From a virus, in the IMG/VR virus record IMGVR_UViG_3300029619_000014, positions 1 to 42,979 of that record: a stretch of DNA of 42,979 nucleotides. One strand, written 5' to 3'. A program made the translations under genes and the position numbers. Of this stretch, positions 26,033 to 29,075 are shown one piece after another (position 1 is the first letter of the stretch; every line of letters begins with the position of its first letter). The notes under the pieces are model-generated. The model had not been told where the DNA came from and did not search any database. It worked only from the letters and a program-made list of their open reading frames with translations.

Positions 26033-26388
26033 TCGTCATCCTCCTCCGGCAAGGGCGGTAGCTCCGCCCAAAACGTGCCCAGCAAGTCCTTCGGGCGTAT
26101 AACCTCCGCCTTCGTATGCGCTTCGTTCGGCACAACCCAGACGCCGTCCGTCGCATAAAACGCCTTGTAAATGCGCCCGTCTGCCAAAAGTGCCACACAC
26201 CGCCCGTCCTGCGGTACTCCCTCGCTGTCGGGTGTCCAGTGCTTTTCCTGCAATTTCTTTTGCAGCTTTCCGATCATCGCCCGCATCGTTTCATTGCCGA
26301 CTGCCAGGTGTTCGATCAAATTCGCCGCCGCGAAAAATTCCTCGCTCCCGCTGCTCCGCAGTGCCTTTACAATCTCTTTTTCAGTCAT
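26020..26388 (-). CDS. Hypothetical protein (122 aa, [14 protein letters not shown]...)
   Basis: The ATG at 26388 overlaps the dcm stop (ATGA). Confidence 0.62.
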
Positions 26389-27335
26389 AGGGTTTCTTCC
26401 TCCATTTCTTCCCGCAGCGCCCGGAATATCGGATACGCCTGCTGCGGCACTACCGCATTTCCGAGGCATTTAAGTCTGTCCACCCGATAGGGAATCCCAT
26501 GAGCCACTCGACCCACGTCGGGTTCAGTTGCCCAGCAACGTCCGTCCGCAAGCTCCTGTGATTGTTCCCGCCGTGCGACCCCTGTGCATCTTCCGCGCAC
26601 GGTGTCGTAAACAATTTTTTCATCGCCACGGCCTGCGTCAGATTGCATTTCCCCGGATTTTTCATTCTGCTCGGCGGCACAGACTGCAGCCTGTCCTTGT
26701 ACTCGTTCGCCCGCGGTGTCTGCCATAGTCCACTCCGAATCAGTACCTGCGCCCCAAGATGCGTGCTTTTCTCCGGCGGTCTTCCGCGCGTCACCGCAGT
26801 CATGCCGCACTGCCCCGCCGTCGGCGTCGGCCACATCCGCGATTCCGACGAAGAATACTCTCGATCTACGGTGCCAAGCTCCGACAGCCGCAGCTTCAAA
26901 ATTAAACACGACGACGTGATAGCCAGCACGCTCCAGATCCTTGACCACCTGCCCGGCGGCAATCTTGATGATTCCAGGTACGTTCTCACCAACAACGAAA
27001 TGCGGGCGCAGTTCGTCGATAACTCGCAGCATCTCCGGCCAGAGGTAACGAGCGTCTTCTTTTCCCTTTTGCTTTCCAGCCACGGAAAAGGGCTGGCAGG
27101 GGAATCCGCCGGAAATAACGTCAACTGTTCGTAGTCCTGTCCGCTCATAAAAACTCTCCTTCGTCAGCGTCTGGACGTCGCGCCAGCGCGGCACGTCCGG
27201 CCAGTGCTTCTCCAGCACCTTTGTAGGGTAGTCGGCAAACTCGCACTGCCCGACGGTCGTAAAGCCCGCCCACTCGGCAGCCAGATCAAGCCCGCCGATC
27301 CCGGAAAACAGGCTCAGATGGGTAAGCTCCCTCAC
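26385..27335 (-). CDS. dcm: DNA (cytosine-5) methyltransferase, frame A (316 aa; GTG start)
   Basis: Motif I LFSGIGG, motif [11 protein letters not shown], motif VI VGENV, motif [15 protein letters not shown]-terminal motif X LGNAVVPQ. The central ~130 codons are A/D/G/R-rich and lack a recognisable TRD or motif IX. Confidence 0.85.
26450..27148 (-). CDS. Nested ORF in a second frame of dcm (232 aa) carrying WPTP/WQTP repeats and a motif-IX-like [11 protein letters not shown]
   Basis: AAGGAGAGTTTTT-ATG (own SD) at 27148. Product ...MWPTPTAGQ...LWQTPRANE...[14 protein letters not shown]...[21 protein letters not shown] looks like the missing TRD/motif IX region of the methyltransferase. Confidence 0.5.
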
Positions 27336-27680: not shown

Positions 27681-27916
27681 GCTCTGCACCGCCTCGCCGT
27701 GCACGCGCCGTAGCTGTCTACCCTGCGCCAGTCCAGTCCCCAGTGCTCCAGCGCCGCCTTGATCGCCGCCTGCGGGCTGGGGGCGCGAACGCGCAGGACT
27801 GTGCTCCCGCGCGTCACCCACCATTCTGCCTTGCCCTTGTACTCCCCGGCACAAACAGTGTTCTCCTGCCGGCGGAAGCCGCCCGCCTGATACCCGACGA
27901 TCATTCTGTCCACCAT
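27677..27916 (-). CDS. Hypothetical protein (79 aa)
   Basis: GGGAGG RBS before the ATG at 27916; the longer form in the track (to 28195) overlaps the 3D gene and looks spurious. Confidence 0.5.
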   Translation of the reverse strand: MVDRMIVGYQAGGFRRQENTVCAGEYKGKAEWWVTRGSTVLRVRAPSPQAAIKAALEHWGLDWRRVDSYGACTARRCRA

Positions 27917-28536
27917 ACCGTCGCCTCCCGCACGCCCAGCTTCAGAGCCTCCTCGTGCGTCTGCACGGCAAGGTCGATGTGCCCGCCCAGCACGGCGCTG
28001 CCCGTGTCCTCTGCAATGTAGCTGTGCAGCACGCCGTCGCCGTAGTCCACAAAAATCTCCGCCCCCAGCGGGATCACGTTGGGATCGACTGCCGCCGACC
28101 GCCCCGCCGTCACGTCTGTGCCCGTCGCGGTCTTGCCCGTCCCGCCGCCGCAGATGTGCGGACGCTTTTCGCAGCAGTAGTATGTAACCGTGCACTCCCG
28201 GAGCACGCCATCGAACCCGCGCAGCTCGTCCAGATCGTTCCGCCCCGTCTCCGGGTATTCATTTTCCAGCAGCACGATCTCATACTCCAGCTCCCGCGCG
28301 CCCCTGCCCGCTCCTGTAGGGGCGGACGCCTCTGTCCGCCCGTCGGCTTCCCCCTTGAGGGGGAAGCTGTCAGCCGTAGGCTGACTGATGAGGGTGGAGT
28401 TCTCTTCTCTGATCTGCTTCGCGTTTGCCGCCGCCCGCGCCGTCCCCAGCACCAGCAGCTCAAGCACCGCCAGCGCCAGCACCACCATCAGCACAAACTC
28501 GCCGACCACCCGCAGCGTCTCACGTCTCTTTCCCAT
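27901..28536 (-). CDS. Membrane-anchored 3D-domain (MltA/RlpA-like double-psi beta-barrel) cell-wall protein (211 aa)
   Basis: N-terminal TM VVGEFVLMVVLALAVLELLVLG; C-terminal ...TATGTDVTAGRSAAVDPNVIPLGAEIFVDYGDGVLHSYIAEDTGSAVLGGHIDL is the 3D-domain pattern; AAGGAGA RBS. Confidence 0.75.
   Translation of the reverse strand: MGKRRETLRVVGEFVLMVVLALAVLELLVLGTARAAANAKQIREENSTLISQPTADSFPLKGEADGRTEASAPTGAGRGARELEYEIVLLENEYPETGRNDLDELRGFDGVLRECTVTYYCCEKRPHICGGGTGKTATGTDVTAGRSAAVDPNVIPLGAEIFVDYGDGVLHSYIAEDTGSAVLGGHIDLAVQTHEEALKLGVREATVWWTE
28347..28399 (+). repeat. Two-hairpin element, copy E (in frame in the linker of the 3D-domain protein)
   Basis: CTTCCCCC-TTGA-GGGGGAAG (28347-28366), GTCAGCC-GTA-GGCTGAC (28369-28385), tail TGATGAGGGTGGAG; encodes LISQPTADSFPLKGEADG. 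Confidence 0.85.
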
Positions 28537-28547
28537 CGTTCTCTCCT

Positions 28548-29075
28548 TTACTCCACGATCGCCAGCAGCAGCCTCCGCAGCTTGTCTGTCCCCGTCTCCG
28601 GCGCGATCAGCCCCACCAGCATAAACCCCGCCTTCGCCGCGATCAGCTCCCGGCATCCCGCCGGAGCGCGCAGCGTCAGCTCCACGTTTTCATATTCCGC
28701 AAGGATCGGCGCGAGCAGCGCCCTGTCTGCCCAGCGTACCCCGACGCCCGGCACGACCAGCGGCATCAGCTCCCGACCCATGTAGTTCACGCTCACGCTC
28801 TTCCGCACAGCAGCTTTTTCTCCGTCTGCCGTGTCCAAAAAGCAGATAGAGGGCGGCGCTTCCCGCTCCCGAATGCGCATGGCGTCCTTCTGCTTGTCGT
28901 TCAGCTCCAGCAGGCTCGGCAGATTCTCCGCCCGCAAATGCGGCAGCCCCTCCACCGGGTACAGTGCCCGCCCGTCCGTGATCCACTGCTGCACGCACCC
29001 GGCGCGATCCGTGTAGTTCACCAGCTCTGCCCAGCCCTCCTGCTTGCAGAGCTGCGCGATCTTCTTGATCTTCAT
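28548..29075 (-). CDS. Hypothetical protein (175 aa, MKIKKIAQLCKQEGW...)
   Basis: The ATG at 29075 overlaps the upstream stop (ATGA); the 320-aa form in the track has a non-protein-like N-terminus. Confidence 0.62.
   Translation of the reverse strand: MKIKKIAQLCKQEGWAELVNYTDRAGCVQQWITDGRALYPVEGLPHLRAENLPSLLELNDKQKDAMRIREREAPPSICFLDTADGEKAAVRKSVSVNYMGRELMPLVVPGVGVRWADRALLAPILAEYENVELTLRAPAGCRELIAAKAGFMLVGLIAPETGTDKLRRLLLAIVE

What the first reader, a model, noticed from the sequence alone, without database searches (positions are those of the whole stretch)
26385..27335. Cytosine methyltransferase motifs are split between two overlapping reading frames; a 232-aa ORF with its own SD is nested inside dcm
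Frame A (26385-27335) carries motifs I (FSGIGG), IV (GFPCQPFS), VI (ENV) and VIII ([10 protein letters not shown]), and at its very end motif X ([12 protein letters not shown]). Its central ~130 codons are A/D/G/R-rich (…[20 protein letters not shown]…[10 protein letters not shown]…) with no TRD or motif IX.

A second frame (26450-27148) starts at an ATG preceded by AAGGAGAGTTTTT. It encodes …MWPTPTAGQ…LWQTPRANE…[47 protein letters not shown]. This is a protein-like TRD region ending in a motif-IX-like (E)WLMGFPxxW.

The VADA/MADT strings of frame A are simply WPTP/WQTP read one base off.

Hand-counted third-position G+C:

| Region | Frame A | Nested frame |
|---|---|---|
| dcm-only 5' part | about 80 percent (50/62 codons) | not applicable |
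| 26840-27148 | 58 percent (54/93) | 68 percent (41/60) |
| First ~50 codons after 26836 | 64 percent (29/45) | 76 percent (38/50) |

One active enzyme would need a +1 shift near 26840 and a -1 shift near 26465. Otherwise the enzyme is made as two polypeptides from fully overlapping genes (a split C5 methyltransferase exists in M.AquI), or the gene is decaying. Yet frame A stays open through ~130 out-of-frame codons.

I also recall both kinds of peptide strings from database entries of other phages. That would mean the dual-frame arrangement is conserved (unverified recollection).
Basis: partly seen in the sequence, partly recalled or inferred. Interest (0 to 1): 0.8.

Follow-up and report, generated by a model that had tools for sequence, protein, structure and literature searches.

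The report
Two-subunit cytosine methyltransferase from nested genes
One stretch of phage DNA is read in two frames to make two proteins that most likely assemble into one DNA cytosine methyltransferase; this layout was shown experimentally in 1995 for an E. coli enzyme and here proves to be the rule in a very large group of phage and prophage genes.

Summary
On the minus strand, a 316-aa ORF ("alpha", 27335-26385) carries motifs I, IV, VI, VIII and X. A 232-aa ORF ("beta", 27148-26450) lies inside it in the +1 frame. Beta has its own AAGGAG-ATG and carries the WPTP-type target-recognition modules and motif IX.

It is not an assembly error, a decaying gene or chance.
- Of 186 related loci from phages and many bacterial phyla, 159 share the layout.
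- Alpha is open from motif I to X in 159/159 and beta in 156/159. The third frame is open in 0/159.
- Among 64 non-redundant loci, the alpha linker is open in 64 where 2.6 are expected.
- Among close relatives, purifying selection switches from the alpha frame (aa 1-166) to the beta frame (167-265) and back to alpha.
- Synonymous variation in alpha is suppressed where beta overlaps.

The best explanation is a heterodimeric C5 methyltransferase of the M.EcoHK31I type. Alpha is the catalytic domain with a hydrophilic tether in place of the small domain. Beta is the small domain, translated separately. A double frameshift is unlikely: both "passenger" segments stay open, beta has its own start, and no slippery sites were found.

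The architecture is known, so this is a new member. Its prevalence, the placement of the recognition modules on beta, and its frequent mis-annotation seem little appreciated.

The parts
26385..27335 (-). alpha ORF (316 aa, GTG start): catalytic (large-domain) subunit carrying motifs I, IV, VI, VIII, then a tether, then pre-X and X
   Evidence: Pfam PF00145 E 8.6e-37 over aa 5-169. TIGR00675 E 4.9e-34. PHROG 363 E 3e-80 over the full length. Aligns to M.HaeIII residues 4-161, plus a weak match to its motif X.
26450..27148 (-). beta ORF (232 aa, ATG start), +1 frame, wholly inside alpha: N-terminal extension, TRD modules and motif IX
   Evidence: PHROG 1008 E 5.5e-27. 5175 homologues. 17,755 50%-identity clusters. 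No Pfam or NCBIfam family.
27156..27161 (-). Shine-Dalgarno AAGGAG, 7 nt upstream of the beta ATG (27146-27148); it lies inside alpha codons T-K-E-S-F-Y
   Evidence: An SD 5-mer precedes the first beta ATG in 39% of 64 non-redundant loci, against 6.5% background.
27291..27308 (-). alpha motif I, FSGIGG (AdoMet binding)
27084..27107 (-). alpha motif [10 protein letters not shown] (catalytic Cys); the same DNA encodes beta residues ~15-22
26979..26987 (-). alpha motif VI, ENV
26844..26873 (-). alpha motif [14 protein letters not shown]
26837..27148 (-). beta N-terminal extension (aa 1-104, [19 protein letters not shown]...), overlapping alpha motifs IV-VIII. Its sequence is weakly constrained but the frame is kept open.
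   Evidence: Open in 59/64 non-redundant loci against 8.8 expected. Alpha synonymous-codon identity rises from 0.34 to 0.46 here. Single-nt changes are 81% synonymous in alpha and 17% in beta.
26535..26843 (-). alpha tether (aa 165-267): hydrophilic, non-conserved, the -1 reading of the beta TRD. The frame is kept open but the amino-acid sequence is unconstrained.
   Evidence: Open in 64/64 against 2.6 expected, and in 159/159. Only 5% of single-nt changes are synonymous in alpha. Hydrophobic fraction is 0.17 against 0.34 in the catalytic part.
26528..26836 (-). beta TRD region with three W/F-x-T-P-x-A-x-D/E modules: MWPTPTAGQ at 26810-26836, LWQTPRANE at 26702-26728, [11 protein letters not shown] at 26579-26611
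   Evidence: 81% of single-nt codon changes are synonymous in the beta frame. The modules are conserved across phyla.
26471..26527 (-). beta motif [21 protein letters not shown]; it overlaps alpha pre-[20 protein letters not shown] (26478-26534)
   Evidence: hhalign to the in-frame motif IX of Mycobacterium phage Tweety gp72, E 3.5e-6. Alpha synonymous-codon identity is 0.68-0.83 here.
26442..26477 (-). alpha motif [13 protein letters not shown]; the beta stop codon (26450-26452) lies inside it

Best explanation
This locus encodes a heterodimeric DNA (cytosine-5) methyltransferase made from two fully overlapping genes on the same strand.

**The two products**
- Alpha is the long frame. It is the complete catalytic large domain: motifs I-VIII at the N-terminus and motif X at the C-terminus. 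A roughly 100-residue hydrophilic tether joins them where a single-chain enzyme has its small domain.
- Beta is the +1 frame. It starts at its own SD-ATG just upstream of motif IV. It is the small domain, made of the WPTP-type target-recognition modules and motif IX. A roughly 100-residue N-terminal extension precedes them and probably docks beta onto alpha.
- The two polypeptides assemble on DNA into an active enzyme, which methylates the phage and/or host DNA.

**What is shown here**
- The two-frame anatomy.
- Its conservation.
- Selective maintenance of both open frames.
- The alpha to beta to alpha switch in the frame under purifying selection.
- An SD signal at the beta start.

**What is inferred**
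- That both proteins are made and associate. This rests on analogy with M.EcoHK31I, where it was shown experimentally.
- That the tether is disordered.
- That the beta N-terminus mediates association.
- The biological role, presumably anti-restriction.
For: 1. **Anatomy.** The layout in the window is as described.

2. **Conservation.** HMM-based frame assignment over 186 related loci gives 159 with motif X in the alpha frame and the TRD/IX in +1.
 - Alpha is open from motif I to X in 159/159.
 - Beta is open from its N-extension to IX in 156/159.
 - The third frame is open in 0/159, with a median of 16 stops.
 - Locus GC content ranges from 0.32 to 0.66 in the 89 regex-classified loci.
 - Hosts include Bacillota, Bacteroidota, Pseudomonadota, Planctomycetota and Patescibacteria.

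3. **Open frames against a conservative null.** The null permutes synonymous codons. Among 64 loci below 80% identity, the alpha tether is open in 64 against 2.6 expected. The beta N-extension is open in 59 against 8.8 expected.

4. **Selection among close relatives.** The fraction of single-nucleotide codon differences that are synonymous changes by region:

 | alpha residues | alpha frame | beta frame |
 |---|---|---|
 | 1-62 | 94% | 3% |
 | 63-166 | 81% | 17% |
 | 167-265 | 5% | 81% |
 | 266-294 | 75% | 26% |
 | 295-316 | 74% | 11% |

5. **Suppressed synonymous variation in alpha where beta overlaps.** P(same codon | same aa) by region:

 | Region | Value |
 |---|---|
 | alpha-only N-terminal | 0.34 |
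 | alpha-only C-terminal | 0.36 |
 | IV-VIII overlap | 0.46 |
 | pre-X / IX overlap | 0.68 |

6. **Beta start signal.** The window has AAGGAG 7 nt before the ATG. An SD 5-mer occurs upstream of the first beta ATG in 39% of loci against 6.5% background. The ATG most often sits 47 nt before motif IV.

7. **Independent assemblies.** Assemblies from different samples carry the same two frames, including versions with different TRD module sets.

[quoted passage not shown] - Removing the beta start codons with changes silent in alpha abolishes methylation, and beta supplied in trans restores it.
 - The beta N-terminal 41-50 residues are needed for alpha-beta association (PMC2836561; PMC3404938).

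9. **Controls.** The single-frame relatives Tweety gp72 and Papez gp46 have IX and X in frame, and their +1 frame is closed by stops.
Against: - No direct evidence was available for translation of either product or for activity.
- The alpha to beta to alpha pattern of selection is also what a single frameshift-fused polypeptide would leave.
- The beta N-extension is only weakly constrained at the amino-acid level (17% synonymous).
- Part of the beta N-extension's apparent conservation is a shadow of alpha. The beta-N profile also hits the +1 frame of single-frame relatives. The untranslated +2 frame also exceeds the permutation null.
- AlphaFold models of alpha and beta were uninformative (pLDDT 30 and 34), so the domain assignment rests on motifs alone.
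Confidence: 0.8

Rival explanations
1. One polypeptide is made by two programmed ribosomal frameshifts. A +1 shift just after motif VIII (near 26840) and a -1 shift between motifs IX and X (near 26470) would rebuild a canonical single-chain I-VIII/TRD/IX/X enzyme.
For: - The frame under purifying selection switches alpha to beta to alpha exactly at these points.
- Single-chain relatives with everything in one frame exist: Tweety gp72 and Papez gp46.
Against: - This model needs neither the alpha tether nor the beta N-extension to be open. Yet they are open in 159/159 and 156/159 loci, against 2.6/64 and 8.8/64 expected.
- Beta has its own ATG and an enriched SD about 100 codons upstream of the supposed shift site.
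- No canonical X_XXY_YYZ heptamer lies between IX and X in 0/64 loci.
- The first junction can be as short as 10 nt with no obvious conserved slippery sequence by eye in the junctions printed.
- There is no 0-frame stop after the supposed shift site.
- M.EcoHK31I works with alpha and beta supplied from separate plasmids.
- In the variants L108 and L076, alpha simply ends after motif VIII.
Confidence: 0.07
2. Only alpha is a real protein, a short Dcm with an unusual low-complexity recognition region. The nested ORF is an untranslated by-product of composition.
For: - Many database records annotate only alpha as the methyltransferase.
- GC-rich DNA often has long open alternative frames.
- The +1 shadow of conserved alpha motifs looks conserved by itself.
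Against: - In aa 167-265, 81% of changes are synonymous in beta and only 5% in alpha.
- Amino-acid identity of alpha in this region is 0.13 across the family.
- Beta carries a bona fide motif IX that aligns to the in-frame motif IX of a single-chain relative.
- The layout holds at 32-39% GC.
- The third frame is never open.
Confidence: 0.05
3. The split is an artefact or a decaying gene. Either two compensating single-base assembly errors are present, or the gene is a pseudogene on its way out.
For: A minority of relatives do carry extra frameshifts or in-frame stops: L023, L025, L089, L097, L103, L162 and L178.
Against: - The same two-frame layout appears in independent assemblies from different samples and in isolate phage and bacterial genomes.
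- Both frames are kept open far beyond expectation.
- Both frames show purifying selection in their own segments.
Confidence: 0.02

Closest known systems
M.EcoHK31I (E. coli HK31; recognises YGGCCR), a natural alpha/beta C5 methyltransferase (Lee, Kam and Shaw 1995, as described in PMC2836561 and PMC3404938)
   Same: - Beta is encoded entirely inside alpha, on the same strand, in another reading frame.
[quoted passage not shown]
- Beta has its own initiation codon or codons.
- The beta N-terminal segment matters for association with alpha. Here that segment is kept open and mildly constrained.
   Different: - The literature places the (predicted) TRD on alpha and only motif IX on beta. Here the conserved, selected region between VIII and IX is in the beta frame, and the alpha middle is an unconstrained tether.
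- M.EcoHK31I is part of a restriction-modification system. The window gene sits among phage genes with no endonuclease seen nearby.
- E. coli prophages do carry dual-frame members of this family.
M.AquI (CYCGRG), a two-subunit C5 methyltransferase
   Same: It is a naturally split C5 methyltransferase. The break lies in the variable region and the two polypeptides must associate (PMC3404938).
   Different: - In M.AquI the small subunit carries IX and X, and the large one carries I-VIII.
- In the window, motif X returns to the large subunit and the small gene is completely nested.
- The relatives L108 and L076 do have the AquI-like partition, with alpha ending after VIII and TRD+IX+X in the +1 frame.
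Single-chain phage Dcm enzymes of the same superfamily, for example Mycobacterium phage Tweety gp72 and Papez gp46
   Same: - Motifs I-VIII are homologous.
- The motif IX type is the same (EW[LM]MG.P.GW).
- Motif X is the same (GN[AG]VVPQ).
   Different: - All motifs lie in one frame.
- The +1 frame is interrupted by stops.
- There is no nested gene.
Paenibacillus larvae phage Diva gp49/gp50 and relatives (Fernvirus)
   Same: The two-frame layout is the same. GenBank annotates both genes, with gp50 noted as 'g49 internal gene'.
   Different: - IX (beta) and pre-X (alpha) are sequential rather than overlapping, with 116 nt from IX to X instead of 29 nt.
- The three P. larvae phage papers checked do not discuss the arrangement.
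Artificial fragment complementation of monomeric C5 methyltransferases (M.HhaI, M.BspRI, M.BsuRI, M.SssI)
   Same: It shows that the C5 methyltransferase fold tolerates being delivered as two chains split in the variable region (PMC3404938).
   Different: These are engineered fragments, not natural overlapping genes.

Membership tests
C5 DNA cytosine methyltransferase (Pfam PF00145 / TIGR00675) | Motif I (FxGxGG) and motif IV (PCQ catalytic Cys), with a significant profile match | tested here: met
   FSGIGG and GFPCQPFS are in alpha. PF00145 E 8.6e-37. TIGR00675 118 bits against a cut-off of 100.65.
C5 DNA cytosine methyltransferase (Pfam PF00145 / TIGR00675) | Motifs VI (ENV), VIII (QxRxR-like) and X (GNAV) in the catalytic domain | tested here: met
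   [11 protein letters not shown] and LGNAVVPQ are all in the alpha frame. The N-terminal half aligns to M.HaeIII residues 4-161, and the C-terminus aligns weakly to its motif X.
C5 DNA cytosine methyltransferase (Pfam PF00145 / TIGR00675) | TRD and motif IX between VIII and X on the same polypeptide | tested here: not met
   The alpha middle (aa 165-267) has no TRD or IX. Both are in the +1 frame. The enzyme is therefore a C5 methyltransferase only as an alpha+beta pair.
M.EcoHK31I-type heterodimeric C5 methyltransferase | Small-subunit gene lies wholly within the large-subunit gene, same strand, different frame | tested here: met
   Beta 27148-26450 lies inside alpha 27335-26385, in the +1 frame.
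M.EcoHK31I-type heterodimeric C5 methyltransferase | Large subunit has motifs I-VIII and X; small subunit has motif IX | tested here: met
M.EcoHK31I-type heterodimeric C5 methyltransferase | Both polypeptides are synthesised and both are required for methylation | not testable with these tools
   Indirect support only: both ORFs are maintained, each shows purifying selection in its own segment, and an SD precedes the beta ATG.
M.EcoHK31I-type heterodimeric C5 methyltransferase | TRD located on the large subunit (stated in the literature as predicted, not as a defining property) | tested here: not met
   The region between VIII and IX is selected in the beta frame (81% synonymous) and not in alpha (5%). 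The alpha tether has 0.13 amino-acid identity.
M.EcoHK31I-type heterodimeric C5 methyltransferase | Sequence homology to M.EcoHK31I alpha and beta | not tested
   The M.EcoHK31I sequence and the 1995 paper were not available.
M.AquI-type split C5 methyltransferase | Small subunit carries motifs IX and X; large subunit ends in the variable region | tested here: not met
   In the window, motif X is in the alpha frame and alpha continues to it. The feature is met in the relatives L108 and L076.
Programmed ribosomal frameshift gene | Slippery site at the junction, no independent start for the second frame, and the 0 frame closed soon after the shift | tested here: not met
   0/64 loci have an X_XXY_YYZ heptamer between IX and X. 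Beta has an SD-ATG about 100 codons upstream. The alpha frame stays open in 159/159.

The most novel reading that the evidence does not exclude
The nested alpha/beta layout is not a curiosity of one E. coli enzyme. It is the default architecture of a very large clade of phage and prophage cytosine methyltransferases, with a beta profile hitting 17,755 protein clusters. In this clade the whole target-recognition domain sits on the separately translated beta subunit, not only motif IX. Beta is modular, with 1-5 WPTP-type units. Specificity could then evolve by exchanging modules in beta, while the only demand on alpha is that the other reading of the same DNA stays free of stops. Standard annotation systematically loses one of the two genes or calls the locus a pseudogene.
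Probability: 0.7. Interest if true: 0.7.

Novelty: new member of a known kind. Interest (0 to 1): 0.6.

Why it matters
1. **A clean case of dual coding.** About 700 nt of same-strand DNA is read in two frames, and the two products are parts of one enzyme. The frame under selection visibly changes hands along the gene. This makes it a useful test case for overlapping-gene detection methods.

2. **Annotation.**
   - Gene callers pick either alpha or beta.
   - PGAP in one E. coli genome splits alpha into two 'incomplete' pseudogene pieces.
   - NCBIfam and Pfam have no family for beta.
   - Phage methylomes may therefore be attributed to incomplete enzymes. Cloning alpha alone to determine specificity would probably fail.

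3. **Engineering.** M.EcoHK31I has been used as a natural split methyltransferase for targeted methylation. This family offers thousands of natural alpha/beta pairs with varied recognition modules.

4. **Evolution.** Relatives show a series of architectures from which the origin of the overlap can be reconstructed.
   - Single-chain.
   - AquI-like split.
   - EcoHK31I-like split.
   - Only the TRD in the second frame.

Tried and rejected
- **AlphaFold2.** Beta was modelled with a 34-sequence alignment and alpha with 28 sequences. Mean pLDDT was 34 and 30, low even over the certain methyltransferase core. The models were discarded and no fold search was run.
- **Family searches for beta.** Sequence and profile searches against the PDB found nothing. 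Pfam and NCBIfam also found nothing.
- **Pfam on a hand-made chimera.** I joined alpha 1-166, the beta TRD/IX and alpha X. The PF00145 match did not extend past motif VIII. It does not extend for the true single-chain relatives either, so the test is uninformative.
- **GC3 as a frame discriminator.** Rejected. It prefers the beta frame even over motifs IV-VIII, where alpha is certainly coding.
- **Permutation test on beta-frame amino-acid identity across IV-VIII.** It gave z = 55, but the untranslated +2 frame gave z = 41. The test mostly measures relatedness and was not used as evidence. It was replaced by region-to-region comparisons of synonymous identity and codon-position diversity.
- **First regex classification of motif frames.** It missed variant motif IX and X spellings, leaving 70 loci unclassified. 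It was replaced by HMM-based frame assignment.
- **Obtaining the M.EcoHK31I sequence or the 1995 paper.** Not held.
- **Paenibacillus phage genomics papers.** They do not discuss the internal gene.
- **Literature searches.** Searches for overlapping genes in phage methyltransferases found nothing beyond the M.EcoHK31I papers.
Full report
**What is in the window**

The feature lies on the minus strand.
- The long frame, here called alpha, runs 27335 to 26385. It is 316 aa with a GTG start preceded by AAGGAGG.
- Alpha carries motif I (FSGIGG), IV (GFPCQPFS), VI (ENV) and VIII ([10 protein letters not shown]).
- A G/A/D/R/E-rich stretch follows at residues 165-267. After it come [19 protein letters not shown] and motif X ([12 protein letters not shown]).
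- Pfam PF00145 matches only residues 5-169.
- Alpha aligns to M.HaeIII residues 4-161, and its C-terminus aligns weakly to M.HaeIII motif X.

The nested frame, here called beta, runs 27148 to 26450.
- It is 232 aa, in the +1 frame relative to alpha, and starts at an ATG 7 nt after AAGGAG.
- It reads [19 protein letters not shown]...MWPTPTAGQ...LWQTPRANE...[11 protein letters not shown]...[19 protein letters not shown].
- The last string is a typical motif IX. A profile of beta sequences aligns it to the in-frame motif IX of Mycobacterium phage Tweety gp72 (E 3.5e-6).

Their GC3 counts are approximately right. GC3 is not informative, however, because it prefers the beta frame even over motifs IV-VIII.

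**Not an artefact, and conserved**

tblastn of each frame against phage genomes hit the same places in two frames. The hits included very distant phages. Translating those loci showed the same anatomy in all of the following:
- two gut phage scaffolds;
- Lacticaseibacillus phage R23.9;
- Acinetobacter phage ABMM1;
- a 64% GC podovirus;
- Paenibacillus phage Diva;
- Xanthomonas phage phiXaf18;
- Escherichia phage ZCEC5;
- a Cylindrospermopsis phage.

Diva's GenBank record even lists gp50 as 'g49 internal gene'.

Beta has 5175 homologues in the large protein collection. Most are 195-279 aa with no Pfam domain. A beta profile hits 17,755 50%-identity clusters. Alpha has at least 8000 homologues, the tool's scoring cap.

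In independent metagenome assemblies the gene caller chose beta and skipped alpha. Alpha is nevertheless open end to end there, including in relatives with a different and longer set of TRD modules.

**How general, and how far from chance**

I fetched 160 related loci from viral contigs and from one-genome-per-species bacterial contigs. I then assigned frames with four HMMs: alpha-N, alpha-C, beta-N and beta-C.
- Of 186 loci held, 159 have motif X in the frame of motifs I-VIII and both beta parts in +1.
- In these 159, alpha is open from motif I to X in all 159.
- Beta is open from its N-extension to motif IX in 156.
- The third frame is never open and has a median of 16 stops.
- In the genome set, which was retrieved with a motif IV pattern only, 63 of 80 loci are canonical and all 63 are open in both frames.
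- In the 89 loci classified by regex, locus GC runs from 0.32 to 0.66.

I also applied a conservative null that permutes synonymous codons within each region. It was run on 64 loci below 80% identity.

| Segment | Observed open | Expected open |
|---|---|---|
| alpha tether | 64 | 2.6 |
| beta N-extension | 59 | 8.8 |

For the window alone the probabilities are 0.004 and 0.012.

The two single-frame relatives examined, Tweety gp72 and Papez gp46, have a +1 frame full of stops.

**Which frame is selected where**

Among eight close relatives, nucleotide diversity peaks at different codon positions along the gene.
- In residues 1-62 and 63-166 it peaks at alpha codon position 3.
- In residues 167-265 it peaks at beta position 3, which is alpha position 1.
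- In residues 266-316 it peaks again at alpha position 3.

The share of single-nucleotide codon differences that are synonymous follows the same pattern.

| alpha residues | alpha frame | beta frame |
|---|---|---|
| 1-62 | 94% | 3% |
| 63-166 | 81% | 17% |
| 167-265 | 5% | 81% |
| 266-294 | 75% | 26% |
| 295-316 | 74% | 11% |

Across the deep alignment of 56 loci I measured the probability that two sequences with the same alpha residue use the same codon.

| Region | P(same codon, given same aa) |
|---|---|
| alpha-only N-terminus | 0.34 |
| alpha-only C-terminus | 0.36 |
| motifs IV-VIII, overlapped by beta | 0.46 |
| pre-X, overlapping motif IX | 0.68 (up to 0.83 locally) |

The conclusions from these data are:
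- The TRD region is coded by beta.
- The alpha reading of that DNA is a free-running tether that must only avoid stops. It is hydrophilic, with a hydrophobic fraction of 0.17 against 0.34 in the catalytic part.
- The beta N-extension is a weakly constrained passenger on motifs IV-VIII.
- The IX/pre-X segment is truly constrained in both frames.

**Mechanism**

In C5 methyltransferases the large domain is built from motifs I-VIII plus X. The small domain is built from the TRD plus IX. This is established knowledge of the family (M.HhaI and M.HaeIII structures).

Alpha is therefore a complete large domain with a tether where the small domain would be inserted. Beta is the small domain with an N-terminal extension.

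This is the architecture reported for M.EcoHK31I (PMC2836561; PMC3404938).
- Beta is encoded entirely in another frame of alpha.
- Silent removal of the beta start codons abolishes methylation, and beta supplied in trans restores it.
- The beta N-terminal 41-50 residues are needed for association.

Independent initiation of beta in the present family is supported by two observations. The window has its own SD. SD 5-mers are six-fold enriched before the first beta ATG, 39% against 6.5%. That ATG most often lies 47 nt before motif IV.

**Rivals**

A double programmed frameshift would leave the same alpha to beta to alpha selection pattern. That is the main caveat. It does not explain the following points:
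- Both passenger segments are kept open.
- Beta has its own start about 100 codons upstream of the supposed shift site.
- No X_XXY_YYZ heptamer lies between IX and X in any of 64 loci.
- The first junction can be only 10 nt long, and no conserved slippery sequence was evident by eye in the junctions printed.

The alpha-only reading fails on the selection data. Assembly error and decay fail on the independent assemblies, although a few relatives are truly frameshifted.

**Variants**

Relatives show several partitions of the enzyme.
- Alpha ends right after motif VIII, and the +1 frame carries TRD, IX and X. This is AquI-like and is seen in L108 and L076.
- IX and pre-X are sequential rather than overlapping. 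This is seen in Diva, L113, L126 and L107.
- Only the TRD modules are in +1, while IX and X return to alpha. This is seen in L144.
- Everything is in one frame, as in Tweety and Papez.

The constant feature of the split forms is that the WPTP-type modules lie in the +1 frame.

**Comparison and novelty**

The architecture is known from M.EcoHK31I, so this is a new member of a known kind.

Three things appear not to be in the literature I could search:
- the scale of the family;
- the placement of the recognition modules on beta, where the literature assigns a 'predicted' TRD to alpha;
- the consequences for annotation.

Sequence homology to M.EcoHK31I itself could not be tested. E. coli prophages do carry dual-frame members.

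Noticed in passing
L108:1501-2780 and L076:1501-2600 (relatives): An alternative partition of the same enzyme. The alpha frame stops a few codons after motif VIII. The +1 frame carries the N-extension, TRD, motif IX, a separate pre-X peptide and motif X. This resembles M.AquI but with a roughly 100-codon overlap.
   Followed up: partly
L144:1512-2715 (Rickettsiaceae MAG): A third partition. Motifs IX and X are both in the alpha frame after a roughly 200-residue tether. Only the WPTP-type TRD modules lie in the +1 frame.
   Followed up: no
window 26528-26836 (-) and beta homologues P0001-P0115: The beta TRD is built from repeated W/F-x-T-P-x-A-x-D/E modules. Close relatives differ by whole modules, giving beta lengths of 195-279 aa. 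This is reminiscent of the tandem TRDs of multispecific Bacillus phage methyltransferases. Whether module number changes specificity is unknown.
   Followed up: partly
L186:1378-2547 (E. coli XYEH3314 prophage); L019:596-1333 (Cylindrospermopsis phage Cr-LKS3); L007-L014, L180-L185: The locus is annotated inconsistently. PGAP splits an intact alpha into two 'incomplete' pseudogene pieces. One phage record annotates only beta as 'methyltransferase'. Metagenome gene callers call beta and leave the alpha N-terminus as an apparent 190-nt gap.
   Followed up: partly
window 26836-26846 (-) and 30 of 64 non-redundant loci: The first WxTP of beta often begins exactly 10 nt after the R.R of motif VIII. 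It is then the +1 reading of the conserved alpha strand I-V-A/G (ATT GTG GCC read as TTG TGG CC.). Even single-frame Tweety shows 'LLPTPRA' in its +1 frame at this spot. This may hint at how the overlap arose.
   Followed up: no
window 27332-27335 and 26385-26388 (-): The alpha GTG start overlaps the stop of the upstream 103-aa Cys-rich ORF (GTGA). The alpha stop overlaps the ATG of the downstream ORF (ATGA). This suggests translational coupling within a phage early or replication operon. Neither neighbour has a Pfam match. In relatives the downstream gene is DUF551.
   Followed up: partly
window 27901-28656 (-): A 251-aa ORF with a C-terminal 3D domain (PF06725, E 2e-13). This domain is typical of cell-wall-binding or lytic proteins. 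It lies just upstream of the methyltransferase module.
   Followed up: no
L023, L025, L089, L097, L103, L162, L178: A minority of relatives carry an extra frameshift or an in-frame stop inside the locus. These may be decayed prophage copies or assembly errors. P0031 (291 aa) is a called protein that fuses the alpha N-terminus to the beta frame in this way.
   Followed up: partly
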